From the IMG/VR virus record IMGVR_UViG_3300035208_003217: 64,000 nucleotides of DNA. One strand, given 5' to 3'. Below, piece after piece: positions 7,286 through 36,704 of this stretch. The notes beneath the pieces are model-generated. The model was not told the origin of the DNA, did not search any database, and saw only the letters and a program-made list of their open reading frames with translations. Made by a program: the position numbers and the translations under genes. Within the stretch, counting starts at the first letter, position 1. Each line of letters starts with the position of its first letter. Origin of the DNA: a virus.

Positions 7286-8200
7286 TTATTGTTGAATTCC
7301 TCCAGTAGTATTTACTGGAATTGGACCATACATATTATTTGGAACAAAGACTCCATTCCATTTTTCTGCTTTAATTTTAGCAATTTCAAGTTCCATCTTC
7401 TTTAATTCAATATCCCAGTTAACAGCTACTGATTGATTGTATTTCTTAATACCTTCGCCTTCTAAGGCTTTAGCATCAGCATTTAATTGAGCTGCGGCTT
7501 TTTCTCCTTCAGCAACTGTAATGGCAATTTGCTTTTGAGCAGTAGCTTGAACTACACCTTTTTGAGCTTCTTGTTCTGCCATCAATTTTTCCTGTTCTTT
7601 CTGTTTAACCTGTTGGCTACGATTCATAGTTTCTTTAATTTGAGCATCAAAATCATCGGACCAATCGTAGTTAATAATTTGTAGTTCAGTTACTTCAATT
7701 GGATAATTAATTAATTTTTCTTGTAATCTTTTGAATACATTTCCTCTTACTTGATCTTGCATCGTTGCTAATTCAAAAATAGTATAATTACCTATCTCTG
7801 CTTTAAAACTTTCTTTTAATGTTTGACCAATAATATCTCCTATTTTTTGAGTTCCATATTGACTATACATCATTGGTAACTGATCTGGCTTAAATTTATA
7901 GAAGATAGTCATATCAGAACCAATAGTTTGATTGTCTTTTGTAATAGCACCACTACCTCCAACTGGAACATTTTGATCGAGTTGAATTGGTTGAATACTA
8001 ATTTTTTTAACTTTCTGCATAAAAGGAACTTTTGTATGTAATCCTGGTTCAATAATTCTATCACTAACAGCACCCCAATTAAATAATAGTCCCTTTTCGT
8101 TTGCTGATACTTTATAAAATGGATTCAATAAGGCAAGCAAGATAAATGCTATCAACGAAATTACAATCCACTTTACATAATTAATCTCTTTTTGTTCCAT
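7286..8200 (-). CDS. SPFH/band-7 (prohibitin/HflC-like) membrane protein
   Basis: N-terminal transmembrane helix, a band-7 core, and a C-terminal Ala/Gln/Glu-rich coiled coil (QEAQKGVVQATAQKQIAITVAEGEKAAAQL). Confidence 0.65.
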   Translation of the reverse strand: MEQKEINYVKWIVISLIAFILLALLNPFYKVSANEKGLLFNWGAVSDRIIEPGLHTKVPFMQKVKKISIQPIQLDQNVPVGGSGAITKDNQTIGSDMTIFYKFKPDQLPMMYSQYGTQKIGDIIGQTLKESFKAEIGNYTIFELATMQDQVRGNVFKRLQEKLINYPIEVTELQIINYDWSDDFDAQIKETMNRSQQVKQKEQEKLMAEQEAQKGVVQATAQKQIAITVAEGEKAAAQLNADAKALEGEGIKKYNQSVAVNWDIELKKMELEIAKIKAEKWNGVFVPNNMYGPIPVNTTGGIQQ

Positions 8201-9389: not shown

Positions 9390-9403
9390 ATATTTATATT
9401 ATG

Positions 9404-9474
9404 TACGCAGAGATAGAATCGAACTATCATTAGAGCTATATAAGAACCCCATTCTACCATTGAAATATCTGCGT
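9404..9474 (-). tRNA. tRNA, low-GC, anticodon probably UAU (Ile)
   Basis: Acceptor ACGCAGA pairs perfectly with TCTGCGT. T-arm GATAG-TTCGATT-CTATC. Anticodon stem GGGTT/AGCTC uses two G-U pairs around loop CUUAUAU. The D-stem has only 3 bp. The anticodon call is tentative. Confidence 0.45.
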
Positions 9475-9480
9475 ATTATG

Positions 9481-9551
9481 TCAGAGATGGAAGAGTCGAA
9501 CTTCCCCCACGTGGATCCAAGCCACGCATGCTACCGCAACACTTATCTCTG
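9481..9551 (-). tRNA. tRNA-Pro (anticodon UGG)
   Basis: Acceptor CAGAGAT pairs with ATCTCTG. Anticodon stem CGTGG/CCACG around loop CUUGGAU. T-arm GGAAG-TTCGACT-CTTCC. Confidence 0.7.
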
Positions 9552-9554
9552 TTT

Positions 9555-9626
9555 GGTGACAGCGGAGAATTGAACTCCAATATCCAGGATCACAACCTAG
9601 CACTTTATCCTTTAAGCTATTATCAC
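9555..9626 (-). tRNA. tRNA-His (anticodon GUG)
   Basis: Acceptor GTGATAA pairs with CTGTCAC (6 of 7 pairs). D-stem GCTT/AAGT. Anticodon stem CTAGG/CCTGG around loop UUGUGAU. T-arm TGGAG-TTCAATT-CTCCG. Discriminator C. Confidence 0.6.
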
Positions 9627-9628
9627 AG

Positions 9629-9717
9629 CGGAGAATAAAGGATTCGAACCTTTGAGAAGTTTTTCAACTCCTGCTAGTTTTCAAGACTAGTGCAATCATC
9701 CACTCTGCCAATTCTCC
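9629..9717 (-). tRNA. tRNA-Ser (anticodon UGA), long variable arm
   Basis: Acceptor GGAGAAT pairs with ATTCTCC. Anticodon stem CTAGT/ACTAG around loop CUUGAAA. Long extra arm. T-arm AAAGG-TTCGAAT-CCTTT. Length 89 nt. Confidence 0.8.
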
Positions 9718-9718
9718 G

Positions 9719-9801
9719 TACCTCTAATAGGATTCGAACCTATAATGTCTTTCGACGCTGGTTTCTAAAACCAGTATGTCTACCTATTCCATCATAGAGG
9801 C
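9719..9801 (-). tRNA. tRNA-Leu (anticodon UAG), long variable arm
   Basis: Acceptor GCCTCTA pairs with TAGAGGT (G1-U72 wobble). Anticodon stem CTGGT/ACCAG around loop UUUAGAA. 13 nt extra arm. T-loop TTCGAAT. Confidence 0.7.
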
Positions 9802-9807
9802 AAAATG

Positions 9808-9892
9808 TGGAAGCAGTAAGATTCGAACTTACGAAGTCACATGGGACATATGGTCTACAGCCATACGCATTTGACCGCTTTGCTATACTTCC
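9808..9892 (-). tRNA. tRNA-Tyr (anticodon GUA), long variable arm
   Basis: Acceptor GGAAGTA pairs with TGCTTCC. Anticodon stem TATGG/CCATA around loop CUGUAGA. Long extra arm. T-loop TTCGAAT. Confidence 0.75.
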
Positions 9893-9896
9893 ATTG

Positions 9897-9967
9897 AGGA
9901 TCCACTAAGAATCGAACTTAGATACTATGATTAACAGTCATTTGCTTTACCATTAAGCTATAGATCC
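9897..9967 (-). tRNA. tRNA-Asn (anticodon GUU)
   Basis: Acceptor GGATCTA pairs with TGGATCC. D-stem GCTT/AAGC. Anticodon loop CUGUUAA. T-arm CTAAG-TTCGATT-CTTAG. Confidence 0.7.
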
Positions 9968-9972
9968 TTTAG

Positions 9973-10043
9973 CTCCGGAACAAGGATTCGAACCTCAATT
10001 TCTAGGTTCAAAGCCTAGCGTCCTGCCGTTAGACGATTCCGAA
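9973..10043 (-). tRNA. tRNA-Gln (anticodon UUG)
   Basis: Acceptor starts U1-A72 (TTCGGAA pairs with TTCCGGA), as in bacterial tRNA-Gln. Anticodon stem CTAGG/CCTAG around loop CUUUGAA. T-loop TTCGAAT. Confidence 0.7.
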
Positions 10044-10046
10044 AAA

Positions 10047-11351
10047 TTAGCTACTACTTTCTATATCTACATTGCCTTCATCTAGCAATTTAGTTTCATA
10101 TTCTAAAAACTTAAATGATTTTAACTTATATGTATCAAACTGAAAACCAGATTCTTTTCTTAAGACAATACCTTCTTCAGGAACTTTATTTTTACAAATG
10201 AAACAATCTTTTTCAGTGTATTCTCTTTGTAAATATTTAATAAAATCTCCTCTCCATTCTTCATCTCCTATTAATAAATCTTTTCTAAATAATAAATCAA
10301 TTACTTTTCCATAATAGAATAAAGGAACATATTCTAATCCATATCTATCGCAGAATTCTTTGATTTCAAGTGTAGATAAATTATAGACAAATCCAAATTC
10401 ATTTGTCAATGTTATTCTATATATCATTAACTTTTTCTGTTCTTGTTCACAACCATAATCATATCCTTTCTGAATACAACCTCCACTCTTAGTATACCCA
10501 AGACATTCGCCATAAAGAGTATAACCTTGAGGAATTTTATCTTTTAATTCTTCTTTAATTTCTCCCCATAAATCATATTCATAGTAATGTTCTTTATGAG
10601 AGGTTTCGAACTCGTTCTTGACAACTTTGCGAGAACCATAGACGTAGTCATATTCAATATCTTTGATTTTAACTCCAATTGTTTTAAGAGCTTTTTCATA
10701 TAGTTTTAATTTACGCTTTACTAAAATATTTGAAACCCAAAATGATGTTCCGTGAACTTTATAGGTAATAGAGATATAATCTTCAAGATTTATTTTGTCT
10801 ATATTTCTTAGTAAATTTTCAGTATCAACATGTAAATGAACTTGTCCTTCAACTAATCTTGAAATTCTAGGCTTCTTTCCTTGTCTATTTGACAACCCGC
10901 TATTTCTAGTTGGAACAAAATACTTTTTAAGTATCTGTATCTTATTAACCATATCAAATTCCTTATTTAATTCAATAGGAATATCATATCCTATAAATTT
11001 TTCAAAGGTAGAAAAAGGAAATAAAACTCCCATTGATTTTTGTCCGCGAAGTCTGACAGCTCTTACTCTTCCATTATCTTCAAAGAATCCGCACTTTTCA
11101 TCATTAACTATTTCATTTAGATTACTGTGTCTATATGAATTTGTATGTGCTAAAAAAGAACTATTTATTTGCGACTCGAGTGGAAAAAAGATACAAACAT
11201 CTCCAACTTTAGTATCCATACCAACAATAACTTCCTGAAAATCTATAATAGCAATTTGAAGTTTATCTGCATTTGGATGCTTTTTTAATTCTTTAATTTG
11301 AACTACTTTGGCAAGGTAGTTTTTATTAGCGTCTTTTGAGATTGATAACAT
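10047..11351 (-). CDS. RNA ligase (Rnl2-like nucleotidyltransferase) fused to an N-terminal tRNA-binding (Myf/Trbp111-type OB) domain
   Basis: The N-terminus KVVQIKELKKHPNADKLQIAIIDFQEVIVG...VGDVCIFFPLE matches the tRNA_bind OB-fold signature (HPNADKL). The downstream ligase has motif I YKVHGTS (KxHGT, as in T4 Rnl2), motif IV EGIVLRKE and motif V YKLKS. 434 aa. Confidence 0.7.
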   Translation of the reverse strand: MLSISKDANKNYLAKVVQIKELKKHPNADKLQIAIIDFQEVIVGMDTKVGDVCIFFPLESQINSSFLAHTNSYRHSNLNEIVNDEKCGFFEDNGRVRAVRLRGQKSMGVLFPFSTFEKFIGYDIPIELNKEFDMVNKIQILKKYFVPTRNSGLSNRQGKKPRISRLVEGQVHLHVDTENLLRNIDKINLEDYISITYKVHGTSFWVSNILVKRKLKLYEKALKTIGVKIKDIEYDYVYGSRKVVKNEFETSHKEHYYEYDLWGEIKEELKDKIPQGYTLYGECLGYTKSGGCIQKGYDYGCEQEQKKLMIYRITLTNEFGFVYNLSTLEIKEFCDRYGLEYVPLFYYGKVIDLLFRKDLLIGDEEWRGDFIKYLQREYTEKDCFICKNKVPEEGIVLRKESGFQFDTYKLKSFKFLEYETKLLDEGNVDIESSS

Positions 11352-11364
11352 ATAATTTTATTAG

Positions 11365-11437
11365 CCCAACCGCCTAGATTCGAACTAGAAATTCCGGTTT
11401 AGAAAACCAGTGTTTTATCCTATTAGACTACGGTTGG
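11365..11437 (-). tRNA. tRNA-Arg (anticodon UCU)
   Basis: Acceptor CCAACCG pairs perfectly with CGGTTGG. Anticodon stem CTGGT/ACCGG around loop UUUCUAA. T-arm TCTAG-TTCGAAT-CTAGG. Confidence 0.7.
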
Positions 11438-11440
11438 TTT

Positions 11441-12307
11441 TTAAAAATCTATTCTAGGATCCATTGTATTGACATCGCAAACAAATAGACTAAGATTTTT
11501 CCACATTCTAATTACTTTAGGACGGTCATCAAAGACAGTTAAAACATTATACTTATCTTTAATATACTTATTATAGAATTCTTCTTTAACTATTTCATCA
11601 GGTCTTTTGTCTCCTTCATTTCGCATTACTAATTTTGTATATTTGATATGATTTTTTTCAAGCCAGTCTTCTGTTTCTTTTTTACAATCACTATCGCGTC
11701 CACTAAAAATAAATAAATCAAATTGTTCCAAGTGTTTTAATATCTTAATTAGATTAATGTTAGGAATGTCATCCGATACTTTAGTATAATCATAAGGACT
11801 TCGATAGATTCCTTCTGCTAATGTTCCGTCTATATCACAAATTATACAAGGACTTAAATCATAATTGTATTCTTTGTCTTGATACTTTTTTTCTCTTAAA
11901 TACTGATTATACATATTAAGAATAACTCTTTTACCAACAGATTCTTCTCCTCTTTTGCTATCTCTTTCTATACATTCATATAAAGGAGTATCTATAAACT
12001 TAATTTCTACTTTAACATTCTTATAAATAGATGCTATCCTTTTAATTCTATCAATATGTTTTTGAGCAAAGTTTGTATCATCAACTATAATATTATATCC
12101 TTCTGTAAGAGCACGCATTATAATAGCATCACGAACACTTAATACAAAGTTTTCTGTTTTCTGATTATAAACTTTATTAGAAAGCATTGCTCTTAGATCA
12201 TCTTTATTAACTCGTTTCCAAAAATTCGGTTCTTTAGTTACTAATTCTTTAGCAAAGGTACTTTTTCCGGAAGCGGGTAATCCTTGTAAGATTAATATTT
12301 TTTGCAT
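11441..12307 (-). CDS. pnkp: polynucleotide 5'-kinase/3'-phosphatase (T4 Pnkp-like)
   Basis: N-terminal P-loop GLPASGKST (kinase). C-terminal HAD phosphatase motif CDIDGTL. Collinear similarity to T4 Pnk throughout, for example KRPDEIVKEEFYNKYI and FDDRPKVIRMWKNL. Confidence 0.8.
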   Translation of the reverse strand: MQKILILQGLPASGKSTFAKELVTKEPNFWKRVNKDDLRAMLSNKVYNQKTENFVLSVRDAIIMRALTEGYNIIVDDTNFAQKHIDRIKRIASIYKNVKVEIKFIDTPLYECIERDSKRGEESVGKRVILNMYNQYLREKKYQDKEYNYDLSPCIICDIDGTLAEGIYRSPYDYTKVSDDIPNINLIKILKHLEQFDLFIFSGRDSDCKKETEDWLEKNHIKYTKLVMRNEGDKRPDEIVKEEFYNKYIKDKYNVLTVFDDRPKVIRMWKNLSLFVCDVNTMDPRIDF

Positions 12308-12842: not shown

Positions 12843-13985
12843 TTATAATAATGTTCCTTGATTCATAAATGCTAATGTAGGTCCTTCTTTTCTACGTTTA
12901 TCTTGAAGGTCTAAATAGAAACAAATATTAGCAAAGTTTCTTGGTTTGTAAGCCTGAGTTTTTTGTGTAGTCATTACAGGCGTTTGACATTTAGGACATT
13001 TACACTCATCTTCTTTACTAGTTTCCATCATTGATTGAATTCCATATCCAATTTTATTTTTAAGATAGCTATCAATATGTTCTTTAATTTCTAATGGTTT
13101 ATTATTAATATGGTCTTCATCATGAAGATTCTGATCTGATACATATATTCTTCCATACCGAGTTAAAATATTTCCCATTGCTGCTGTTAATGAATATGAG
13201 CTAGAATCAACAGTATACCAAGGATATCTTTCAACAAGTCTTTTAGATGTAACAGCAAATCCATGAGTTTTAATTATTTGTCCCTTCTGAATTCTTGGAT
13301 TTTTAGAATAGTCATAATTCATTATATGACGAAATGAAATATCAAGCCATTCCATTTTTGCTTTTTCAGATGAATCATTACAAGGACTAACTCCAATATA
13401 ATCACATTCATCTAACATTCTATTAAGAACCCAAATAGGTTCACCTTGATGATATACATGAATTGTATCCCAACCTCTTTCTTTTAAGTATTTATAGTTT
13501 TTCCATCCTTGTTCTGCTGCTTCAATAATTTGTTCTTCTGTTGGAACACTTCCTTGTTCTCCTGGAATAACATCTAGATTAACACCTCTCCAGATAATAT
13601 CTTTATATTTATTTAAGTGTTCAAGATATTTATCAATATTAACTAAATGTTTTTTCCAGTTTCCAATTTCATCTACTTTAGCAAGAATTTCTTCCCTTCC
13701 TTTTTGATTTAACAATTGCCACATAGGTTCTCCTCCTATCATATCATATGCTTCTTCTCTTCTTGTTTTTTGTGATAAGTTCCATGAAGTAAATGCTCCA
13801 CTATCACAAATTAAATTAACATTATTTTTTTCAATTAATCCTTTCATTTGCCAAGGTTCGGGATAAGCATATGAGATAAGAATATTTTTGACATTACAGA
13901 TAAGAAGAAATTCTAAGTACTGTTTAGATCCAGTCGCCATAAATAGATTAAAATCTTGTATATCGCTACTAGTTTTTTGAAACAT
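12843..13985 (-). CDS. dpdA: DpdA-like tRNA-guanine transglycosylase family protein (7-deazaguanine DNA transglycosylase)
   Basis: TGT-family fold with a C-terminal zinc motif CKCPKCQ (CxCxxC). It is encoded immediately upstream of queF, folE and queC. Confidence 0.65.
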   Translation of the reverse strand: MFQKTSSDIQDFNLFMATGSKQYLEFLLICNVKNILISYAYPEPWQMKGLIEKNNVNLICDSGAFTSWNLSQKTRREEAYDMIGGEPMWQLLNQKGREEILAKVDEIGNWKKHLVNIDKYLEHLNKYKDIIWRGVNLDVIPGEQGSVPTEEQIIEAAEQGWKNYKYLKERGWDTIHVYHQGEPIWVLNRMLDECDYIGVSPCNDSSEKAKMEWLDISFRHIMNYDYSKNPRIQKGQIIKTHGFAVTSKRLVERYPWYTVDSSSYSLTAAMGNILTRYGRIYVSDQNLHDEDHINNKPLEIKEHIDSYLKNKIGYGIQSMMETSKEDECKCPKCQTPVMTTQKTQAYKPRNFANICFYLDLQDKRRKEGPTLAFMNQGTLL

Positions 13986-13986
13986 A

Positions 13987-14460
13987 TTATTTTAATAATG
14001 AGTGTCTTGCTAATATAGCACTAATTCTATCTTCTTCTTCCTGACATATATCATCTCTTAATAATTCAACAAATGGTGTAAGAGTAATACCTCCTCTTGA
14101 ATTAAATTTTCCAATTACTTGTAAATAGAGAGGTTCAAGTAAATCGAATAAATCCTTTGCTATACGATTAGTAACATCTTCCATGAATTCACCTGATTGT
14201 CTAAATGAAAATAAATATAATTTTAATGATTTAGATTCAACACATTTCTTATCTGGAATATAATTAATTTCAATAGTTGCCATATCCGGTTGATGTGTTT
14301 TTGGACAAAGGCTTGAAAATTCAAAACATTCAAATGGAATGACATAATAATTATCTTGATGTTGATTTTCAAATACTTCAAGTAATTCAGGCTTTGGTTG
14401 ATCAAATACATACTCAGTTTTTTTGGAACCTAACGATTTTAATTTTTTTGTGTCTGACAT
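13987..14460 (-). CDS. queF: NADPH-dependent 7-cyano-7-deazaguanine reductase QueF
   Basis: QueF motif ESKSLKLYL, matching E(S/L)K(S/A)hK(L/Y)(Y/F), and catalytic-Cys region SLCPKTHQPD. Confidence 0.8.
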   Translation of the reverse strand: MSDTKKLKSLGSKKTEYVFDQPKPELLEVFENQHQDNYYVIPFECFEFSSLCPKTHQPDMATIEINYIPDKKCVESKSLKLYLFSFRQSGEFMEDVTNRIAKDLFDLLEPLYLQVIGKFNSRGGITLTPFVELLRDDICQEEEDRISAILARHSLLK

Positions 14461-14464
14461 ACTT

Positions 14465-15034
14465 TTATTTATTTATGTTTATAAGTTGAAAAAATTCATT
14501 TCTTGCTGTTGAATCATTTTCAAATGCTCCTCTAACAATTGAAGTTGTCATTTTACCATCTTTCTTAACTCCACGAATTGATTTACAAGAATGACTTGCT
14601 TTCAGAATTAAAATTATACCCTTCGGTTGTAATTTTCTTTCAATAAATTCTACTACTTGAGCTCCTAATCTTTCTTGAACTTGCATTCGACTCGAATAAA
14701 AATCTATAATACGAGCAATTTTTGATAATCCAATAATTCTTTTATCAGGTATATATCCAAAATAATAATCTCCTTGAAACAGTGCCATATGATGCTCGCA
14801 AAACGAATTAAACTTTCCTTGATCACATATAATTTGATTATAAACTATACCATCATCATCATTATCAAATGCTGTTACTTTTGGCATTTCGTCTTTATCA
14901 TATCCTTTAAATACTTCTAGATACATTTTAGCCATTCTTTGAGGTGTATCTTTAAGTCCAGAACGATTAGGATTCTCTCCTATTTCTTTAAGTAAATCTT
15001 TACAGATTATTTTTAATTTTTTTAAATCTCTCAT
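14465..15034 (-). CDS. folE: GTP cyclohydrolase I FolE
   Basis: GLKDTPQRMAKMY, CEHHMALF and QVQERL are near-identical to FolE signature segments. Confidence 0.85.
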   Translation of the reverse strand: MRDLKKLKIICKDLLKEIGENPNRSGLKDTPQRMAKMYLEVFKGYDKDEMPKVTAFDNDDDGIVYNQIICDQGKFNSFCEHHMALFQGDYYFGYIPDKRIIGLSKIARIIDFYSSRMQVQERLGAQVVEFIERKLQPKGIILILKASHSCKSIRGVKKDGKMTTSIVRGAFENDSTARNEFFQLININK

Positions 15035-15035
15035 A

Positions 15036-15728
15036 TTATTTATTGTAATATTCTAATGGATCTTTTATTTTATTTTTATTGAAGGCTTCTAATCTTTCTT
15101 GACAACTTCCGCATTTTCCACAGGATTGACCTTGATTATTTGGACAATAACAAGTATGTGTATTTTTATAATCAACTCCTAATTTAATTCCTTTCTTAAG
15201 GATAGAAATTTTATTCATCTTTATATAAGGAGCTAAAATCTTTACATTAATATATGTTCCAAACTCTGATGCTTCTCTTATTGCTTCTAAAAAGTCTGAA
15301 CGACAATCTGGATAGATAGCATGATCTCCTCCATGAGCACCATAATATACTTTATCTATTCCATATGATTCGGCAATACCAACTGCTAATGATAGAAGAA
15401 TTCCATTACGAAAAGGAACAACTGTACTTTTCATATTGTTATCTTCATAATGTCCTTGTGGAATTACTTCACTATCTTTATGATTAAGCAATGATGATTT
15501 AAAGTTGGTAAATATATTTTTTAAATCAAGAATTTTATGACTAACTCTTAAATTAAAACATGTATTCATTGCCTTACTTAATTCAACTTTATTGTGTTTA
15601 CTTCCATAATTAAATGAAAGTGCTAATATATTTTGATTACCATACTTTTTAACAATATCATATAGAAGTGTCGTTGAATCAAGTCCTCCTGAAAGTATAA
15701 TGACTGCTTTTTTCTTTTCTGTTTTCAT
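15036..15728 (-). CDS. queC: 7-cyano-7-deazaguanine synthase QueC
   Basis: PP-loop KAVIILSGGLDSTT and C-terminal zinc motif CGKCGSC. Confidence 0.85.
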   Translation of the reverse strand: MKTEKKKAVIILSGGLDSTTLLYDIVKKYGNQNILALSFNYGSKHNKVELSKAMNTCFNLRVSHKILDLKNIFTNFKSSLLNHKDSEVIPQGHYEDNNMKSTVVPFRNGILLSLAVGIAESYGIDKVYYGAHGGDHAIYPDCRSDFLEAIREASEFGTYINVKILAPYIKMNKISILKKGIKLGVDYKNTHTCYCPNNQGQSCGKCGSCQERLEAFNKNKIKDPLEYYNK

Positions 15729-21797: not shown

Positions 21798-22295
21798 TTA
21801 ATTATTATTTTTTATAGTAATAAAAGATGTTTTTTGTTCAATTACTCCATCAAGTAATTTACCTTCTACATTTTCATATTTTTCAATGATATCCATAATC
21901 ATTTTTTTGTCTTTCACAATTATGTCATGTTTGAATGCTTTTTGAGCTTCTTTAATATCTATTCCTAATTCTTTTAATGAGTCTGAATGAGCAGAAATAG
22001 ATGCTAAAAGAACTGACGGATCATCTACTTTAAGAGTCTTTCTTACTTGTTTACTAATAGATACATTCTCTAATGTTACATTAGTTTCATTATTCTTTTC
22101 AAGAATAAGAATAACTTCTTCTCTTAATATTCTATCTCTTTCTATTAACTCTTTAAGTTGTTCTGTTTCCTTAATGATTAATTGTTCAAATTCTGCTTTC
22201 TTTTTTAAAATTAAATCCTCAAGTTCTTTCTTTTGATTATTAACTTCAATTAAACTACCAAAAATACTCATATAATTATATTTTAGTTTGTTCAA
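21798..22295 (-). CDS. hypothetical coiled-coil protein
   Basis: 165 aa. Confidence 0.4.
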   Translation of the reverse strand: MNKLKYNYMSIFGSLIEVNNQKKELEDLILKKKAEFEQLIIKETEQLKELIERDRILREEVILILEKNNETNVTLENVSISKQVRKTLKVDDPSVLLASISAHSDSLKELGIDIKEAQKAFKHDIIVKDKKMIMDIIEKYENVEGKLLDGVIEQKTSFITIKNNN

Positions 22296-23670
22296 TTAGT
22301 TTTATTAGAGATTCTCCTTCCTCAATATACTTCATAAAATCAAAGATTCTATCTGAATATCCTCCTAAATGAATAGCTTTATTTGAAGATATATCCTTAG
22401 TTCCATATCCTTGTAAATCAAAACAATAAATAAAGCAATCATTTAATTTTCGATATTCATTGTAATATTTTTGAACTCCATATTTACCCTCTAGCCAACT
22501 TTCATTATCTGATAAGATAATAATCCTATCATATTTAACACCTTTTTCAAGTTGTTTGAGGGCATATTTATAAACTAAAGATGTTTCTGTTCCACCTCCA
22601 TTAGCTTTTTCAATTATCTGATTAGTAATAGTTAATGTGCTATCACCTTTCATTAGTTTAAAATTACTAACTGAACTATTATATTGAATTAAATCTGCAT
22701 CATTAGATTTAAACAAAGTCGCCGCTAAGATAGATGCCTTTTTAACTGGATCGCCTGACATTGAACCAGAAGTATCAATAGCGATAAGAGTTTTACCTTC
22801 AAATTTTGGAACACTGGACAATGAAATATCAAGAGCTTTTGAAATAGATTCAAGCATTGTCTGATTATCTATATTATCATAGGCATTATAAAATCTAAAT
22901 GGTAATTGTTTTGAATTCTTGACAGCATTAATATCTTCAATTATATTACAAGCTTTCTTAATAGTAATATCATCTCCATCTTTAGCAATATTTCTTAAAT
23001 TACGAAGTAAAGCCATATAACCAATCTTATTCTCAGAAACTAAATCTTTCCATACTTTCTTTTTATCTTCTCCAGATGAAAGACGAGCCTCCCATGTTTC
23101 TGTATTTTTAAGATTTCCTTCAATCAAATCTTTCCAGGCTTGTTTTTGGTCTTCTCTAGCAAATTTTGGATTAGGATGTGCGATATTAAATAAATCAACT
23201 AACTTAACTTTCTTTGCTTCTGCTTTATATTTTGCTAATTGATAAGGACTAAATTTTAATAATGAATGTCTAATTCCTTTTTTAATTTGTTTTGGAATAG
23301 GTTTCTTTATTAGAGCCACTAATTCTGTTAAATCATCTGGTCTCTCTGCTGTTTCAATAAGCAATCTACATATTAGACTATCTCCTCTATGCTTTTTTGC
23401 TAATAAACTAATTAAAAGAGTAGAAACTGATCTAAGATGAAATTGACAACGAGCAACAACTACTAATTGTGCAATAAATATATCATCTACTAATCCGCAT
23501 AACTCAGTAATTCTTTTTATTCTATCTTTTTCTGTTTCATAAAATTTATCTTCAAGAAAAGTTGTTAAAACTGCCATTACAAGTTCAGTTTTATAATCAT
23601 GTTTAAATGCTTTGCCACCTGCTAAGTTTGCGACTTTGGTGGTTTCTTTTTTTTGATTAAATTTTGACAT
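22276..23670 (-). CDS. rsr: Ro60 ortholog (Rsr): TROVE domain plus vWA domain
   Basis: N-terminal LAGGKAFKHD...FLEDKFYETEKD fits the Ro60 start pattern (AGG.AF...GGTYY..E). YMALLRNLRNI matches Ro60 LTALLRNLGKM and LPFRFYNAY matches HPFHILIAL. C-terminal vWA MIDAS motif DTSGSM. 464 aa. Confidence 0.7.
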   Translation of the reverse strand: MSKFNQKKETTKVANLAGGKAFKHDYKTELVMAVLTTFLEDKFYETEKDRIKRITELCGLVDDIFIAQLVVVARCQFHLRSVSTLLISLLAKKHRGDSLICRLLIETAERPDDLTELVALIKKPIPKQIKKGIRHSLLKFSPYQLAKYKAEAKKVKLVDLFNIAHPNPKFAREDQKQAWKDLIEGNLKNTETWEARLSSGEDKKKVWKDLVSENKIGYMALLRNLRNIAKDGDDITIKKACNIIEDINAVKNSKQLPFRFYNAYDNIDNQTMLESISKALDISLSSVPKFEGKTLIAIDTSGSMSGDPVKKASILAATLFKSNDADLIQYNSSVSNFKLMKGDSTLTITNQIIEKANGGGTETSLVYKYALKQLEKGVKYDRIIILSDNESWLEGKYGVQKYYNEYRKLNDCFIYCFDLQGYGTKDISSNKAIHLGGYSDRIFDFMKYIEEGESLIKLIEQTKI

Positions 23671-23677
23671 AATGTTT

Positions 23678-23810
23678 TTTGAGGGGAAAGTTTAAAACAG
23701 AAATTTATCGTGCTCTACCACTGAGCTAACTCTCCATAATGGAGAGTGTTGGACTCGAACCAACGACCACGTCGTTAAAAGCGAAGTAACTGTTTTTATC
23801 ACCACCTCTA
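23678..23810 (-). ncRNA. Y-RNA-like ncRNA (YrlA-type) with permuted tRNA-like module
   Basis: Read on the minus strand, the order is T-arm (GTTGG-TTCGAGT-CCAAC), then acceptor 3' strand ACTCTCC, a 5 nt loop, acceptor 5' strand GGAGAGT, then D-arm TAGCTCAGTGGTAGAGC. The outer ends pair (AAAACAG with CTGTTTT, and GAGG(T)GG with CCCCTC with one bulge). It lies immediately 5' of rsr. Confidence 0.5.
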
Positions 23811-24143
23811 ATTAAAAATTAACTAACTACATCTTTATTTTATGTCCAAGAAAGACTATTTCTGGAGTATGCTAGAAATGAGCGACTCAGTATATCGAGT
23901 CTATTGTCTCGCTTTATAGAGGCTTGAAGATCACTTGAGAGGTCGATATCTCAAAGTCTTAGTATTTATAATCCGAAGATTATAACTGTAATTTCATATG
24001 TTTATGATGAACTCATTTACTTTACTACCAGTTGTGAGGAGATAAATATAAGCGATAATCTAGGCGAACCTAGTATCTAAATAAAGCAAAATTTATTGAT
24101 GTATTCGCTTATGTTACAACCTCATAACTGCTAATAAAAATTG

Positions 24144-24611
24144 TTAAAAATCTATATCATCAGCTTCCCATTCTTTCTTTTTTATTTCTTTGTTTATATG
24201 CTTTTCATTTGGATCCTGATATTCTTCTGATTTGTATCTTTTAGTATACCATTCCATAAATTTCTTTGATGGTCCATAATATTTAGCTCCAATAGTTCCA
24301 ATCTTAGAATTTTCAACATAATAAGTATCAATTGGAATTCGCATATATCCAATAGCCTTATCAACCATTTTTCCTTCTTTATTATCCCAAACATATTCTA
24401 AATTGTTATCAAAGATTAACCCAGCCTCTTCTATATCTTTTGGACTTAACCATCCCATACAAGTATAACGCCATCCTTCAAGCTCTTTTTGTTCTACCCA
24501 TTCCTTTCCTTTTTGAAGAAAATCTTTAAATGTTTTTTTGTTGGAACCACTTATTATTTCTCCAACAGATGATTCCATTTGATTCAAGTTCTTTAAGTCT
24601 ATTAAGCTCAT
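24144..24611 (-). CDS. hypothetical protein with acidic C-terminal tail
   Basis: 155 aa ending ...KKEWEADDIDF. The start is uncertain because it overlaps the upstream ORF. Confidence 0.4.
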   Translation of the reverse strand: MSLIDLKNLNQMESSVGEIISGSNKKTFKDFLQKGKEWVEQKELEGWRYTCMGWLSPKDIEEAGLIFDNNLEYVWDNKEGKMVDKAIGYMRIPIDTYYVENSKIGTIGAKYYGPSKKFMEWYTKRYKSEEYQDPNEKHINKEIKKKEWEADDIDF

Positions 24612-30971: not shown

Positions 30972-31442
30972 ATGGCAACATTGAATGAAAAACAAACAAA
31001 ATTCTGTGAAGAATATGTAGCTAATGGTTATAATGGAACAGCAGCTTATAGAACAGTTTATAGTCAGGAAGATGATAACTCAGCAGCTGTAGCCGCCCAT
31101 AAATTATTACGTAATAGTAAAATTGTTGATAAGATAAAAGAAATTGAAGGAGACTATCGTATTATTGGTCATAAGTTAGGTATTGATAAAAAATTAATAT
31201 TAACTCGTTTGAGGGATCTGTTAAGTGCGAAAAAACAGGTCTTTTTTAATGGAGAAGAAGTTGGATTAATTGATGACAATTCATCTGTTAATAAAGCTAT
31301 CGAGAATATAATGAAAATAATGGGTGATTTTGCTCCTGAGAAGAAAGAGTTAAGTATTGAAGAAACAGATGTTGATTTATCTAAAATGTCAGAAGAAGAA
31401 AGAAAAGAATATAAAGAAAAACTTTTGCGTAGTTTAACATAG
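30972..31442 (+). CDS. terS: terminase small subunit
   Basis: LNEKQTKFCEEYVANGYNGTAAYRTVYS...AAVAAHKLLRNSKI matches the Terminase_2-type small-subunit N-terminal HTH. It sits upstream of terL. Confidence 0.75.
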   Translation: MATLNEKQTKFCEEYVANGYNGTAAYRTVYSQEDDNSAAVAAHKLLRNSKIVDKIKEIEGDYRIIGHKLGIDKKLILTRLRDLLSAKKQVFFNGEEVGLIDDNSSVNKAIENIMKIMGDFAPEKKELSIEETDVDLSKMSEEERKEYKEKLLRSLT

Positions 31443-31962: not shown

Positions 31963-32035
31963 TCCCGTCTAGCTCAATTGGATGAGCATCTGTCTTGTAA
32001 ACAGAAGGTTGTGGGTTCGATCCCCACGATGGGAT
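31963..32035 (+). tRNA. tRNA-Thr (anticodon UGU)
   Basis: Acceptor TCCCGTC pairs with GATGGGA. D-stem GCTC/GAGC. Anticodon stem TCTGT/ACAGA around loop CUUGUAA. T-arm GTGGG-TTCGATC-CCCAC. Length 73 nt. Confidence 0.8.
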
Positions 32036-32041
32036 CATAAT

Positions 32042-32112
32042 AGCTGAGTGGAGAAATGGCATCTCGATGGTCTCATAAGCCATAGTTACGAGTTCGACTC
32101 TCGTCTGAGCAA
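32042..32112 (+). tRNA. tRNA-Met-like (anticodon CAU) with an imperfect acceptor stem
   Basis: D-stem GAGA/TCTC. Anticodon stem ATGGT/GCCAT around loop CUCAUAA. T-arm ACGAG-TTCGACT-CTCGT. The acceptor AGCTGAG pairs with CTGAGCA at only 5 of 7 positions, with mismatches at 1-72 and 5-68. Confidence 0.5.
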
Positions 32113-32121
32113 CATAATTAA

Positions 32122-32820
32122 ATGAAAGATGTAGAATATTTAAAGAAAGTTAGTGAATCAAAAGAATTACAAGACCTTGAATGGTGGAATTGTCATGATG
32201 ATCCTTACTATTATCTTACAAATTGGGCGTTTACTTTAGATGCTCATGATTCTGAAAATCCTATTAAATCATTTCCAGAAAAGGAATATCTTAAAGTACT
32301 TGTTAATATTTGGTTAACACAAAATTTATTATTAGTTCCAAAAACTCGTCAAATGCAGATGAGTTGGCTCTTTACAGCATTATATGGATGGGATGTACAA
32401 TTTCATCATGGAAAATTAGTCTTTTTTCAAAGCAAAAAAGCTGAAGATGCCGATGATCTTGTCAAAAGAGCAAAATTTATTTATGATCACCAACCAAAAT
32501 TTCTTAAAAGATACTTTATTGATGGAAAATTCTATGATCTTCATGTGAATCCACAACATAATGGTAAACATACTGAAGGAAAAATGACATTTCCTGAGAT
32601 AAATTCGGAAATTCGTGGTATTCCAGAAGGAGGAGATGTAATCAGAATGCACACAGCATCAGGAATATTAGAAGATGAGATGGCTTTTCAACCAGAAGCC
32701 GAGAATGCCTATACGGCAGCTAAACCAACTATTTCTTCTAAAGGTCGTTTTACCGGATTAAGTACAGCTGAAGACAATACTTTTTTTGAAGATATGGTTT
32801 TTGATCGTATTGAAACTTAA
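32122..32820 (+). CDS. terL: terminase large subunit, N-terminal ATPase fragment
   Basis: Walker-A-like LVPKTRQMQMSWLF (cf. vlk.RQ.GfS in T4-type TerL) and Walker-B-like GILEDE. The ORF stops after 232 aa. Confidence 0.65.
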   Translation: MKDVEYLKKVSESKELQDLEWWNCHDDPYYYLTNWAFTLDAHDSENPIKSFPEKEYLKVLVNIWLTQNLLLVPKTRQMQMSWLFTALYGWDVQFHHGKLVFFQSKKAEDADDLVKRAKFIYDHQPKFLKRYFIDGKFYDLHVNPQHNGKHTEGKMTFPEINSEIRGIPEGGDVIRMHTASGILEDEMAFQPEAENAYTAAKPTISSKGRFTGLSTAEDNTFFEDMVFDRIET

Positions 32821-35132: not shown

Positions 35133-36704
35133 ATGTATAAAATGTTACTTTTTGGGCAAGATGCTCGTGAAAAAATTAAAAAAGGTGTTAATATTTTAGC
35201 TGATGCTGTTAGTTCAACATTAGGACCTAGAGGACAAAATGTTATCTTTGAAGAAAGTTCATTCCCAACTATAACGAAAGATGGTGTAACAGTAGCTCAG
35301 CAAGTTTTTCTTGAAGATAAATTTGAAAATATGGGCAATATGACTGCTCGTGAAGCAGCAGAAAATACTAATCGTGAAGCAGGAGATGGAACAACAACAA
35401 CCATCGTTTTATTAAGAGAAATATTTAATGAAGGATATAAAGCTATAACATCAGGAATGAATTCTGTTCTTCTTAAAAGAGGAATGGATGAAGGATTAAA
35501 ATTTGTTTTAGAGAATTTAGATAAACAAGCTAAAAAAATTACAACAGATAAAGAAAAAGAACAAGTAGCTATTATTTCAGCAAACAATGATATTGAAATG
35601 GGAAAAATGATAGCTTCGGTTATTAAAGAAGTTGGGCAAGATGGAGTTGTAACTGTTTCAAGTTCTAATAATTTAAAGACAGAAGTAGAGTACATTAAAG
35701 GAACAAAATTAAACAGTGGATATGAAAGTCATTTATTTATGAATGATCCAAGAAATCTTTCAGCAGTAATGAATGATCCAGAAATTATTATTACAACAGA
35801 AAGAATAACTATGTCTTCTCAGATTTCTCCTATTATTCAAAAATGTATAGCAGCCGGTAAAAAGAATATGGTTCTATTTGCTGATGTAATTGAAGGACAA
35901 GCAATGGTATTTTTGGTTCAGAATTATTTACAAGGAAAGTTTGCTTGTGTTCCTGTTAAAGTTCCATCTTATGGAGGATATCAAAGAGATTTAATTTATG
36001 ATCTAGCAACACTAACAGAGGCTACAGTATTAGGACAACAAGATGCTAAAATGATAGAAGATGCAGAACTTACAGATTTAGGAAATGCTAAAAATGTTAT
36101 AATAGGAAGAGATCAGACAATTATTTCAGGATCTGAAGGAGATATTAAGAATCGTGTTAAAGAAATTAAAGCATTACTTGAAGAGGAAAAAGATCTTTTT
36201 AAGAAGGAAAAATTAAGACAAAGATTAGGAAGACTAAATGGAAAAATTGCTAATATTAAAGTAGGAGGAGCATCAGATTCAGAACAATTAGAAATTCGTT
36301 ATCGTGTTGAAGATGCTGTTAATGCTACTCGCTCAGCAATTGAAGAAGGAATTGTAGAAGGAGGAGGAACTGCTTTATTAAGATGTTATCAGGCAATACA
36401 AAAAATAGAAGAAAAAGGAACCAAAGAAGAACTTGAAGGATTAAAAATAGTTATTGAAGCATTAAAAGCTCCGTTAAGAAAGATAGTTGATAATGGAGGT
36501 ATCACCGGAGATTCGGTCGTTGCTAAAGTCTTAGAAGGAAAGTTAGGATATAATGCTCTTACTAATGAATATGAAGATTTATTTAAAACAGGAATTATTG
36601 ACCCTAAAAAAGTTGTAAGAAATGAAATAATTAATGCAGTAGCAACAGCCGGTATTTTATTAACATCAGGATGTGCAATTGTTATTAAACCAGAAATAAA
36701 ATAA
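35133..36704 (+). CDS. groEL: chaperonin GroEL (Hsp60)
   Basis: N-terminus LLFGQDAREKIKKGVNILADAVSSTLGPRGQNV and ATP-site AGDGTTTTIVL (GDGTTT). 523 aa. Confidence 0.85.
   Translation: MYKMLLFGQDAREKIKKGVNILADAVSSTLGPRGQNVIFEESSFPTITKDGVTVAQQVFLEDKFENMGNMTAREAAENTNREAGDGTTTTIVLLREIFNEGYKAITSGMNSVLLKRGMDEGLKFVLENLDKQAKKITTDKEKEQVAIISANNDIEMGKMIASVIKEVGQDGVVTVSSSNNLKTEVEYIKGTKLNSGYESHLFMNDPRNLSAVMNDPEIIITTERITMSSQISPIIQKCIAAGKKNMVLFADVIEGQAMVFLVQNYLQGKFACVPVKVPSYGGYQRDLIYDLATLTEATVLGQQDAKMIEDAELTDLGNAKNVIIGRDQTIISGSEGDIKNRVKEIKALLEEEKDLFKKEKLRQRLGRLNGKIANIKVGGASDSEQLEIRYRVEDAVNATRSAIEEGIVEGGGTALLRCYQAIQKIEEKGTKEELEGLKIVIEALKAPLRKIVDNGGITGDSVVAKVLEGKLGYNALTNEYEDLFKTGIIDPKKVVRNEIINAVATAGILLTSGCAIVIKPEIK

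What the first reader, a model, noticed from the sequence alone, without database searches (positions are those of the whole stretch)
22276..23810. Phage-encoded Ro60 (Rsr) ortholog with an adjacent Y-RNA-like, circularly permuted tRNA-like RNA
The 464 aa ORF combines a TROVE-like N-terminal domain with a vWA domain carrying the MIDAS motif DTSGSM. Three of its motifs recur in Ro60 (LAGGKAFK, YMALLRNLRNI, LPFRFYNAY).

Immediately 5' of it on the same strand lies a tRNA-like module with its arms in permuted order: T-arm, acceptor 3' strand, a 5 nt loop, acceptor 5' strand, D-arm. The two outer ends pair into a bulged stem. This arrangement places the RNA ends where a tRNA anticodon stem would be. 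That is the architecture reported for bacterial YrlA-type Y RNAs that bind Rsr.

Ro60 and Y-RNA modules act in RNA quality control and rRNA decay. In Salmonella they sit in one operon with the RtcB/RtcA RNA-repair genes. This phage carries its own RNA-repair enzymes 12 kb away.
Basis: partly seen in the sequence, partly recalled or inferred. Interest (0 to 1): 0.8.

Follow-up and report, generated by a model that had tools for sequence, protein, structure and literature searches.

The report
Phage Ro60 gene with Y RNAs
An uncultivated phage encodes a ring-shaped Ro60 RNA-binding protein preceded by three small partner "Y" RNAs, one a rearranged tRNA look-alike; this is real, but the arrangement is already known from other phages and bacteria.

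Summary
The finding is confirmed. ORF 22276-23670 (-) is a true Ro60/Rsr ortholog. It matches Pfam TROVE at E 8e-23, keeps the MIDAS residues, and its AF2 model matches every solved Ro60 over its full length (TM 0.64-0.74). The best match is the Thermus phage phiLo Ro60.

The RNA at 23681-23808 (-) is a YrlA-type Y RNA with the order T arm, closed 7-bp acceptor-like stem, D arm. It scores below Rfam's YrlA threshold (40.8 vs 69 bits). A covariance model built from viral relatives scores it at 109 bits. That model finds 127 copies next to Ro60 genes in 64 of 82 related loci, with strong covariation, and it cross-detects classical actinobacterial YrlAs.

- The 470-nt spacer holds two further Y-RNA-like elements (24021-24138 and 23862-24031) that share the same basal stem-bulge-stem module.
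- The published GNCGAA Ro-binding motif is replaced by GAGG-UGGUGAUA.
- The small hairpin 5' of the T arm is an anticodon-arm look-alike, and its sequence through the T arm is 37/38 identical to a phage tRNA-Lys(UUU).

T4-type Pnkp and RNA ligase lie about 10 kb away, not in the same operon.

Phage Ro60 with Y RNAs is established (Chen 2014; Hu 2025), so this is a new member of a known kind.

The parts
22276..23670 (-). Ro60/Rsr ortholog, 464 aa: TROVE HEAT-repeat ring (about residues 1-286) plus a vWA domain with MIDAS residues D299, S301, S303, T361, D388
   Evidence: TROVE 81.7 bits; phiLo Ro60, E 1e-20; invariant columns; pLDDT 86; TM 0.64-0.74 to all solved Ro60s; PHROG 850, E 1e-37
23681..23808 (-). 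YrlA-type Y RNA: a basal stem-bulge-stem module plus a circularly permuted tRNA-like domain. The covariance-model match spans 23674-23810.
   Evidence: Rfam YrlA 40.8 bits, E 1.3e-7; R1 109.4 bits; covariation in all 7 helices
23797..23808 (-). 5' half of the presumed Ro60-binding module: P1 strand GAGG followed by internal loop UGGUGAUA. This is the position of GNCGAA in classical YrlAs and of CAUUGUAG or CAGUGUAG in most viral relatives.
23681..23693 (-). 3' half of the basal module: internal loop AAACUUUCC followed by P1 strand CCUC. It ends 10 nt before the Ro60 start codon.
23784..23789 (-). Nearly invariant linker UUACUU, which contains the published YUAY motif
   Evidence: invariant columns; PMC4201824 section 6
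23770..23784 (-). Anticodon-arm-like hairpin (the 'V' stem-loop of Chen 2014): UCG-CUUUUAA-CGA followed by CG, which pairs with C27 G28 (23710-23709) after the D arm
   Evidence: 20 of 33 viral YrlAs form a perfect 3+2 bp arm; U33 in 28/33, R37 in 32/33. (37/38 identity to phage PaBG tRNA-Lys(UUU)). (also present in classical YrlAs).
23748..23764 (-). T arm: GUUGG-UUCGAGU-CCAAC
   Evidence: 98.8% of cells paired, with double changes
23729..23747 (-). Closed acceptor-like stem: ACUCUCC-AUUAU-GGAGAGU (7 bp, 5-nt loop)
   Evidence: every pair of the model's acceptor helix shows changes on both sides
23712..23726 (-). D arm: GCUC-AGUGGUA-GAGC
   Evidence: (invariant)
24021..24138 (-). Second Y-RNA-like element (A). 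Same basal module (GAGG-UUGUAAC ... AUUUAUCU-CCUC; P2 AUAAGCGA/UCGCUUAU; then AUACAUC), no tRNA-like domain, and an extended basal stem.
   Evidence: There are compensatory changes against L001 and L081. The apical part differs in each relative.
23862..24031 (-). Third Y-RNA-like element (B): P1 CUGG/CCAG, 5' loop UAGUAAAGU, P2 AAAUGAG/CUCAUUU, then UUCAUC. Its 123-nt apical domain contains a conserved block, CUAUAAAGCGAGACAAUAGAC, followed by a covarying hairpin.
   Evidence: P1 C-G changes to U-A and P2 U-A changes to G-C in L001 and L081. Only three sequences are available, so support is weaker.
11441..12307 (-). Context: polynucleotide kinase-phosphatase (T4 Pnkp type)
   Evidence: HAD_PNKP, E 9e-40; PHROG 505, E 5e-86
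10047..11351 (-). Context: RNA ligase
   Evidence: RNA_ligase; PHROG 968, E 4e-63
9403..10043 (-). Context: cluster of 8 tRNA genes immediately next to the RNA ligase gene. tRNA-Arg lies at 11364-11437, between the ligase and Pnkp. None of the window's 13 tRNAs is tRNA-Lys.

Best explanation
This is a phage-borne Ro60-Y RNA ribonucleoprotein cassette.

Shown here:
- The ORF is a Ro60 ortholog (TROVE ring plus a MIDAS-bearing vWA domain).
- The 470-nt spacer upstream, on the same strand, holds three tandem structured RNAs. All three share one basal module: a 4-bp stem, an asymmetric internal loop, a 7-8 bp stem, then a [U/A]U[A/U]C[U/A]UC motif.
- The RNA nearest the gene carries a circularly permuted tRNA-like domain of the YrlA type.

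Inferred from characterised systems (D. radiodurans and Salmonella Rsr/Y RNA/PNPase; Thermus phage phiLo Ro60-Yrl1/Yrl2-PNPase):
- The RNAs are cut out of a longer early or middle transcript, since no promoter or terminator separates them from the gene.
- Each binds the outer rim of the Ro60 ring through the basal module.
- The variable apical domains, tRNA-like in YrlA and unrelated hairpins in elements A and B, tether the ring to different host partners. Candidates are a 3'-5' exoribonuclease such as PNPase and tRNA-elbow-binding factors.
- During infection the phage would thereby redirect or blunt host structured-RNA decay, possibly as a counter-defence.
For: Protein identity.

RNA identity:
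- Rfam YrlA is the best local hit.
- Covariance model R1 scores the window RNA at 109 bits. It finds 127 matches in 64 of 82 Ro60 loci, nearly all on the Ro60 strand.
- 92.9% of cells are paired, against 37-45% in the slid controls. There are 995 double-change cells, and 0 of 500 shuffles reach this.
- R1 cross-detects classical actinobacterial YrlAs upstream of rsr.

Shared basal module: a pattern scan gives 209 hits on the Ro60 strand against 25 on the opposite strand, clustered upstream of Ro60 in arrays of 2-6.

Elements A and B: the basal stems keep pairing through compensatory changes in the closest relatives, while the apical parts diverge.

Functional analogy:
- phiLo Ro60 binds two upstream Y-like RNAs and host PNPase, and attenuates PNPase (PMC12135203).
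- A Ro60-like gene of phage Bas63 counters the Ppl defence system (PMC11482910).

Conserved operon context: Ro60 is followed by two unknown ORFs, Rad52 and a PD-(D/E)XK nuclease in the window, L081 and L082.
Against: - There are no expression, processing or binding data for this phage.
- No sigma-70-like promoter or terminator bounds the RNAs. The scan found no more sites than chance predicts.
- The published GNCGAAN0-1G Ro-binding motif is absent from the YrlA copy.
- The Rfam YrlA score is below the gathering threshold.
- Pfam vWA_Ro60 is just below its cutoff.
- Element B rests on only three sequences.
- The host, and whether it has PNPase, are unknown. The nearest genome homologs reach only 38-40% identity and are in Saccharimonadales MAGs.
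- The alignment used for the covariation counts was fitted to the model's structure, which inflates the percentage of paired cells.
Confidence: 0.82

Rival explanations
1. The structured region is a cis-acting 5' leader of the Ro60 mRNA, for example for autoregulation by Ro60 binding to its own leader, and not a set of separate stable Y RNAs.
For: The YrlA 3' strand ends only 10 nt before the start codon. There is no recognisable Shine-Dalgarno sequence, promoter or terminator in between. The spacing and the sequence CCCC(U)CAAAAAAC(A/U)UUAUG are conserved in L001 and L081, and also in L082.
Against: - In other loci the same RNAs lie 40-1100 nt upstream, or even downstream of Ro60 (L019, L125, L127), and occur in arrays.
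- In L082 an HNH gene separates YrlA from Ro60, yet the RNA is intact.
- Characterised YrlAs are stable, modified trans-acting RNAs processed from operon transcripts (PMC4201824).
- The two readings are not exclusive.
Confidence: 0.1
2. The tRNA-like piece is a decaying remnant of two adjacent tRNA genes (the 3' half of one tRNA-Lys and the 5' half of the next) with no function of its own.
For: The tRNA model scores each half at about 22 bits. The region from the V hairpin to the T arm is 37/38 identical to a phage tRNA-Lys(UUU). Real tandem tRNAs give a partial match to R1: window 31991-32064, 27 bits.
Against: - A 7-bp stem with a 5-nt loop replaces the inter-tRNA spacer.
- The same architecture sits next to Ro60 in 64 of 82 loci, with compensatory changes in every helix.
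- ARAGORN and Rfam call no tRNA here.
- An evolutionary origin from dimeric tRNAs is the published model for YrlA (bioRxiv 10.1101/312249) and is compatible with function.
Confidence: 0.03
3. The YrlA RNP acts as a tRNA-Lys decoy or sensor against host anticodon nucleases, working together with the phage Pnkp/RNA-ligase repair pair, and not through PNPase tethering.
For: - The anticodon-like loop CUUUUAA is identical to that of tRNA-Lys(UUU), the classic PrrC target.
- The acceptor stem has 7 bp and is followed by A.
- The phage encodes Pnkp and an RNA ligase around its tRNA cluster, and no tRNA-Lys is found in the window.
Against: - The 'anticodon' triplet is highly variable among related YrlAs (21 different triplets in 33 sequences), so Lys mimicry is not a conserved property.
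- The repair genes are 10 kb away.
- The loop's U33/R37 pattern is shared with bacterial YrlAs that have no such context.
Confidence: 0.05

Closest known systems
Thermus phage phiLo Ro60 with Yrl1/Yrl2 (PDB 9kop, 9l5y; Hu et al., NAR 2025, PMC12135203)
   Same: Both are phage-encoded Ro60s with several Y-like RNAs directly upstream on the same strand. phiLo Ro60 is the closest solved relative by sequence (E 1e-20, 22% identity) and by fold (TM 0.74). Both proteins are about 460-500 aa and lack the N-terminal extension of the vertebrate protein.
   Different: The phiLo RNAs were picked by their CGAA motif and are simple stem-bulge-stem hairpins. Here the proximal RNA has a full tRNA-like domain, and the module lacks CGAA at the homologous position. 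Binding to RNA and to PNPase is shown for phiLo but only inferred here.
Bacterial and mycobacteriophage YrlA RNAs (Rfam RF02553; Chen et al., RNA 2014, PMC4201824; structure 6CU1, bioRxiv 10.1101/312249)
   Same: - The order V hairpin, T arm, closed acceptor stem, D arm.
- The YUAY motif.
- Near-invariant T and D arms.
- Location within 4 kb of Ro60 on the same strand.
- Additional Y RNAs alongside that lack a tRNA domain (YrlB-like).
- A 7-bp acceptor stem, as in M. smegmatis YrlA.
   Different: The RNA scores 40.8 bits against a gathering score of 69. None of 16 viral relatives reaches that threshold. The GNCGAAN0-1G motif is replaced by GAGG-UGGUGAUA in the window and by G(C/G)GG-CAUUGUAG or CAGUGUAG in most viral and MAG relatives. 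There are three tandem RNAs, where Salmonella has two.
Salmonella rsr-yrlBA-rtcBA RNA repair operon (PMC7790460, PMC9879122)
   Same: Ro60, Y RNAs and RNA end-healing and sealing enzymes occur together in one genome.
   Different: No RtcB, RtcA or RtcR was found among the ORFs scanned. The repair enzymes are T4-type Pnkp and an Rnl-family ligase. They lie 10-12 kb away beside the tRNA cluster and are not in the same operon.
Bas63 gp130, a Ro60-like anti-Ppl factor (PhageMaP preprint, PMC11482910)
   Same: Both are phage Ro60-like proteins encoded next to tRNA-like genes. A counter-defence role was proposed for gp130.
   Different: No sequence comparison with gp130 was made here, and no Ppl context is known for this phage.

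Membership tests
Ro60 / Rsr (TROVE2-type ring protein) | TROVE (HEAT-repeat ring) domain above the curated threshold | tested here: met
   PF05731 at 81.7 bits against a cutoff of 23. PHROG 850, E 1e-37.
Ro60 / Rsr (TROVE2-type ring protein) | C-terminal vWA domain with MIDAS residues (DxSxS ... T ... D) | tested here: met
   D299, S301, S303, T361 and D388 are invariant in 26 relatives. The model has a Rossmann-like beta/alpha region at residues 294-436 that matches vWA structures. Pfam vWA_Ro60 reaches only 24.2 bits against 27.7.
Ro60 / Rsr (TROVE2-type ring protein) | Full-length fold equivalent to solved Ro60 rings | tested here: met
   Foldseek: 9kop TM 0.74, 9l5y 0.71, 2nvo 0.64, 1yvp 0.71, 9nen 0.66. 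All 13 top hits are Ro60. Model pLDDT 86, pTM 0.81.
Ro60 / Rsr (TROVE2-type ring protein) | Binds Y RNA on the outer rim and misfolded RNA ends in the central cavity | not testable with these tools
   Needs EMSA, RIP or a structure.
YrlA (Rfam RF02553) | Reaches the Rfam gathering score | tested here: not met
   40.8 bits against 69. It is absent from the gathering-threshold scan. None of 16 viral relatives reaches it either.
YrlA (Rfam RF02553) | Permuted tRNA-like domain: T arm, closed acceptor-like stem, D arm, with near-invariant T and D sequences | tested here: met
YrlA (Rfam RF02553) | Encoded within 4 kb of Ro60 on the same strand | tested here: met
   The RNA ends 10 nt upstream of the start codon, on the same strand.
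YrlA (Rfam RF02553) | Conserved YUAY before the V stem-loop | tested here: met
   UUAC at 23789-23786, within the near-invariant UUACUUC.
YrlA (Rfam RF02553) | GNCGAAN0-1G motif near the 5' end (proposed Rsr contact) | tested here: not met
   The RNA has no CGAA 5' of the T arm. The homologous internal loop reads GAGG-UGGUGAUA. Classical actinobacterial copies found with the same model read GGUCGAAG at that position.
YrlA (Rfam RF02553) | Homology to classical YrlAs, shown by reciprocal detection | tested here: met
   Model R1, built only from viral copies, finds RNAs upstream of rsr in Nonomuraea, Streptosporangium, Actinomadura and Spirillospora at 72-87 bits.
YrlA (Rfam RF02553) | Stable transcript with tRNA-type modifications that is bound by Ro60 | not testable with these tools
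   No transcriptome data for this phage.
RYPER-type machine (Ro60-Y RNA-PNPase) | The Y RNA tethers Ro60 to PNPase | not testable with these tools
   The host is unknown. No PNPase was seen among the 28 window ORFs scanned, but the scan was not exhaustive.
rsr-yrlBA-rtcBA repair operon | RtcB and RtcA adjacent and co-transcribed with rsr and the Y RNAs | tested here: not met
   The neighbours are two unknown ORFs, Rad52 and a PD-(D/E)XK nuclease. The repair genes are Pnkp and an Rnl-type ligase, 10-12 kb away.

The most novel reading that the evidence does not exclude
In this phage the YrlA is an almost complete, backbone-permuted copy of tRNA-Lys(UUU). It has the anticodon loop CUUUUAA, a 5-bp split anticodon stem and a 7-bp acceptor stem followed by A. 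The Ro60-YrlA particle would act as a decoy, sensor or scaffold aimed at host tRNA-Lys-directed anticodon nucleases (PrrC-like). It would cooperate with the phage's own Pnkp and RNA ligase, making it a Ro60-based anti-defence device and not a general RNA-decay adaptor. In a related version, RNase P cleavage in the AUUAU loop would free a chargeable tRNA-like end, as seen for M. smegmatis YrlA.
Probability: 0.06. Interest if true: 0.75.

Novelty: new member of a known kind. Interest (0 to 1): 0.3.

Why it matters
The locus adds an uncultivated, AT-rich phage lineage to the list of viruses that carry their own Ro60-Y RNA particle. Its portal protein is at most 23% identical to that of any cultured phage.

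The wider practical point comes from the comparison set. YrlA-type and mini Y RNAs sit next to Ro60 in most of about 80 viral contigs, often in arrays of 2-6. They use a Ro-binding module without the canonical CGAA motif. None of the 16 relatives tested is detected by Rfam's YrlA model at its curated threshold. A revised covariance model would therefore annotate many viral Y RNAs that are currently missed. The matched divergence of RNA motif and protein clade also offers a natural data set for mapping Ro60-Y RNA recognition.

The finding does not change the concept. Phage Ro60/Y RNA systems are already described and partly characterised.

Tried and rejected
- Nucleotide search of the locus against 50,697 GenBank phages found only tRNA-like fragments and no related phage.
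- A single-sequence search of IMG/VR found nothing. An alignment-based search was needed.
- An exact-sequence lookup of the window's own protein found no record.
- MAFFT alignments could not keep the 3' strand of P2 in register. RNAalifold therefore missed P2 and the split anticodon stem. I solved this with per-sequence pairing tests and a hand-annotated covariance model.
- The sigma-70 promoter and terminator scan gave no more sites than chance. The only 'terminator' is the covarying hairpin inside element B.
- Host inference from reference genomes failed. The best homologs reach only 38-40% identity, in Saccharimonadales and other MAGs.
- I first considered the anticodon-arm-like V hairpin a clade-specific novelty. 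I rejected this because classical actinobacterial YrlAs show the same 3+2 bp arm and CUNNNAA loop.
- The supplementary tables of Chen 2014, which list the phages, are not held in the library.
- Two further module-scan hits in the window (revcomp 13937-14071 and 31339-31407, i.e. + strand coordinates 49930-50064 and 32594-32662) have loops unlike the consensus. I take them to be chance matches.
Full report
**1. Observation**

The minus strand carries a 464-aa ORF at 22276-23670. It matches Pfam TROVE at 81.7 bits (cutoff 23). It gives a sub-threshold match to vWA_Ro60 (24.2 vs 27.7) and weak matches to generic vWA models. They fall in invariant or near-invariant columns of an alignment of 26 relatives, as do the MIDAS residues D299, S301, S303, T361 and D388.

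The minus-strand sequence just 5' of the ORF reads as follows:
- GAGG-UGGUGAUA-AAAACAG-UUACUU
- UCG-CUUUUAA-CGA-CG
- UGGUC
- GUUGG-UUCGAGU-CCAAC (T arm)
- ACUCUCC-AUUAU-GGAGAGU (closed 7-bp acceptor-like stem)
- UA, then GCUC-AGUGGUA-GAGC (D arm)
- A-CG-AUAAAUUU-CUGUUUU-AAACUUUCC-CCUC, followed by 10 nt and the ATG

A default Rfam scan of the window reports only 13 tRNAs (ARAGORN agrees). A permissive scan of 23600-24200 gives YrlA (RF02553) as the top hit at 23691-23796, with 40.8 bits and E 1.3e-7. That is below the family's gathering score of 69. The RNA folds better than shuffles (z = -2.5).

**2. The protein is a Ro60**

By sequence, the only solved relatives are 9kop and 9l5y (E 1e-20, aligned over residues 15-456). 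These are the Ro60 of Thermus phage phiLo (descriptions; PMC12135203).

An AlphaFold2 model built with the family alignment has pLDDT 86 and pTM 0.81. Its 13 best PDB matches are all Ro60 chains and cover the whole protein: phiLo TM 0.74 and 0.71, D. radiodurans Rsr 0.64, Xenopus Ro60 about 0.70, human Ro60 0.66. Below these come isolated vWA domains. PHROG 850, 'RNA-binding protein', matches end to end (E 1e-37).

The family is large. More than 3,600 homologs were found in metagenomic proteins, 136 in IMG/VR contigs and 179 in GenBank phage records. The phage records include Streptomyces, crAss-like Bacteroides, Vibrio, Xanthomonas and Caulobacter phages and a haloarchaeal virus, many already annotated as TROVE or Ro-like.

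**3. The RNA is a YrlA-type Y RNA**

A regular-expression scan of 80 IMG/VR loci found a T-arm / short-hairpin / D-arm module just upstream of Ro60, on the same strand, in most of them. An alignment of 33 distinct copies shows invariant T and D arms and a near-invariant UUACUUC. RNAalifold finds double changes in 16 of 21 pairs.

MAFFT could not keep the 3' strands in register, so I tested two helices sequence by sequence:
- The 8 nt immediately 5' of UUACUUC pair with the 3' tail in essentially every sequence, with different sequences in each: AAAAACAG/CUGUUUU, UGGGACGG/CCGUCCCG, CACGGCAG/CUGCCGUG and so on.
- Under tRNA numbering, 20 of 33 copies form a perfect 'split' anticodon-like arm. 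It consists of a 3-bp hairpin with a 7-nt loop, plus 2 bp with the two nucleotides that follow N26 after the D arm. The loop has U33 in 28/33, R37 in 32/33 and A38 in 29/33.

I then built a covariance model with 31 hand-assigned pairs.
- It scores the window RNA at 109.4 bits (23674-23810, E 9e-26).
- It finds 127 matches in 64 of 82 loci, nearly all on the Ro60 strand.
- On the resulting alignment (112 distinct rows) 92.9% of cells are paired, against 37-45% when partners are slid by 1-3 columns.
- All 31 pairs show double changes, in 995 cells. No shuffle of 500 reaches this.
- That alignment is fitted to the structure, so the paired percentage is optimistic. The slid controls and the independent per-sequence tests point the same way.

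The model was built only from viral copies. It nevertheless detects RNAs upstream of rsr in Nonomuraea, Streptosporangium, Actinomadura and Spirillospora at 72-87 bits. These are among the actinobacteria where YrlA was described (PMC4201824), so the viral RNAs are homologous to classical YrlA.

**4. What differs from the published family**

Chen et al. define a GNCGAAN0-1G motif near the 5' end and a YUAY that starts the V loop. YUAY is present here (UUAC). CGAA is not. At the homologous internal loop:
- the actinobacterial copies read GGUCGAAG;
- most viral and MAG copies read G(C/G)GG-CAUUGUAG or CAGUGUAG;
- the window reads GAGG-UGGUGAUA.

None of 16 viral loci with strong R1 hits has a YrlA match at Rfam's gathering score. 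Routine annotation therefore misses this clade.

The 'V' hairpin looks like an anticodon arm. In the window, the stretch from this hairpin through the T arm is 37/38 identical to tRNA-Lys(UUU) of Pseudomonas phage PaBG, including the loop CUUUUAA. This arm is also present in classical YrlAs, and its triplet is highly variable. It is thus a family trait and is consistent with the published origin from dimeric tRNAs.

**5. Two more Y-like RNAs**

The 470-nt spacer is not otherwise empty.

Element A (24138-24021) has the same basal module: GAGG-UUGUAAC, then P2 AUAAGCGA/UCGCUUAU, then AUACAUC, and on the 3' side AUUUAUCU-CCUC. Its basal stem is extended, and two small hairpins stand in place of the tRNA domain. 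In the two closest relatives (L001 at 81% and L081 at 76% protein identity) the basal stems are kept through compensatory changes. The apical part is different in each. A conserved Ro-binding base with a variable effector domain is the Y-RNA signature.

Element B (24031-23862) has P1 CUGG/CCAG (UUGG/CCAA in the relatives), P2 AAAUGAG/CUCAUUU (AAAGGAG/CUCCUUU in L081) and the motif UUCAUC. Its 123-nt apical domain contains a strongly conserved block and a covarying hairpin. Support here rests on three sequences.

L001 and L081 carry a fourth, ~60-75-nt mini Y RNA that the window lacks.

A pattern scan for the basal module over all loci gives 209 hits on the Ro60 strand against 25 on the other. 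The hits cluster upstream of Ro60 in arrays of 2-6 and fall into two size classes.

**6. Context**

The window is a phage. It encodes a terminase nuclease domain, a P22-like portal, a GroEL-like chaperonin, Rad52, a PD-(D/E)XK nuclease, QueC, GTP cyclohydrolase I and a TGT/DpdA-like protein. Ro60 overlaps the next ORF by 20 nt. It heads a conserved block of two unknown ORFs, Rad52 and the nuclease, which is also seen in L081 and L082.

The 'RNA-repair enzymes' are a polynucleotide kinase-phosphatase (11441-12307) and an RNA ligase (10047-11351). They adjoin the tRNA cluster on the same strand, 10-12 kb from Ro60. They are of the T4 type, not RtcB/RtcA, and are not adjacent to Ro60.

No promoter or terminator delimits the RNAs, so they are probably processed from a longer transcript.

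The phage has no cultured relative, and its host could not be inferred.

**7. Mechanism**

Shown: the protein fold and family, the RNA architectures, their conservation, and their linkage to Ro60.

Inferred: binding of the basal module to the Ro60 rim, and tethering through the apical domains to host factors. This inference rests on three sources. In D. radiodurans and Salmonella, Y RNA tethers Rsr to PNPase (PMC4201824). phiLo Ro60 binds two upstream Y-like RNAs and host PNPase and reduces PNPase activity (PMC12135203). A Ro60-like gene of phage Bas63 counters the Ppl defence system (PMC11482910).

Three different apical domains on one binding module suggest three different partners. The near-invariant T/D elbow points to a tRNA-binding factor, as proposed for YrlA.

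**8. Verdict**

The class is established, so this is a new member of a known kind. The useful extras are three tandem Y RNAs, a non-CGAA binding module shared by a large viral and MAG clade that Rfam's threshold misses, and a YrlA that is nearly a permuted tRNA-Lys(UUU). I score interest at about 0.3.

Noticed in passing
L082:192-623 (relative of the window locus): An HNH endonuclease ORF is inserted exactly between the YrlA RNA and the Ro60 start codon. It takes over the conserved ...CCCCCAAAAAACUUUAUG leader. This looks like a homing-endonuclease insertion at the RNA/gene junction.
   Followed up: partly
L001:3442-3515 and L081:5424-5498: The two closest relatives carry an extra ~60-75-nt 'mini' Y RNA (P1 GUGG/CCAC, P2 CUAGUAG/CUAUUAG, UUACUUC in the loop) upstream of element A. 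The window lacks it, so the number of Y RNAs per locus varies even among close relatives.
   Followed up: partly
window 23883-23935 (-), inside element B: The block CUAUAAAGCGAGACAAUAGAC is strongly conserved. It is followed by a hairpin whose stem covaries: GACUC/GAGUC in the window and GACAC/GUGUC in L081. It is found only in the window, L001 and L081, and its function is unknown.
   Followed up: partly
window 12843-15728 (-): A 7-deazaguanine pathway is present: a TGT/DpdA-like protein (12843-13985), GTP cyclohydrolase I (14465-15034) and QueC (15036-15728). L081 also has PTPS and radical-SAM (QueD/QueE-like) genes. This suggests modification of the phage DNA with a 7-deazaguanine derivative.
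   Followed up: no
window 31991-32064 (+): The junction of tandem tRNA-Thr and tRNA-Met gives a partial (27-bit) match to the YrlA model: the T arm of one tRNA plus the D arm of the next. This is the dimeric-tRNA artefact that Chen 2014 warned about, and it illustrates the proposed origin of YrlA.
   Followed up: yes
L010:589-2111: At least 14 tRNA genes lie directly upstream of the Y-RNA array and Ro60. The arrangement resembles the one noted for phage Bas63 gp130. L025 and L044 have a tRNA interspersed with, or next to, their Y RNAs.
   Followed up: no
L019:5394-5606; L125:3062-3486; L127:3063-3894: In some loci the YrlA and mini Y RNAs lie downstream of Ro60 instead of upstream, as in the Salmonella operon.
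   Followed up: no
window 35133-36704 (+) and 7286-8200 (-): The phage encodes a GroEL-like chaperonin (Cpn60_TCP1, E 7e-52) and an SPFH/Band 7 protein.
   Followed up: no
L084, L103, L120 (genome contigs): The closest homologs in reference genomes and MAGs (37-40% identity) are in Candidatus Saccharimonadales/Saccharibacteria contigs. No reference genome has a close relative of this Ro60 clade.
   Followed up: no
window 23671-23690 (-): The Ro60 start codon is preceded by an A-rich leader (CUCAAAAAACAUUAUG) with no Shine-Dalgarno-like purine run. The C-rich P1 3' strand lies 10 nt upstream. This may reflect a host with SD-independent initiation, or coupling between RNA structure and translation.
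   Followed up: no
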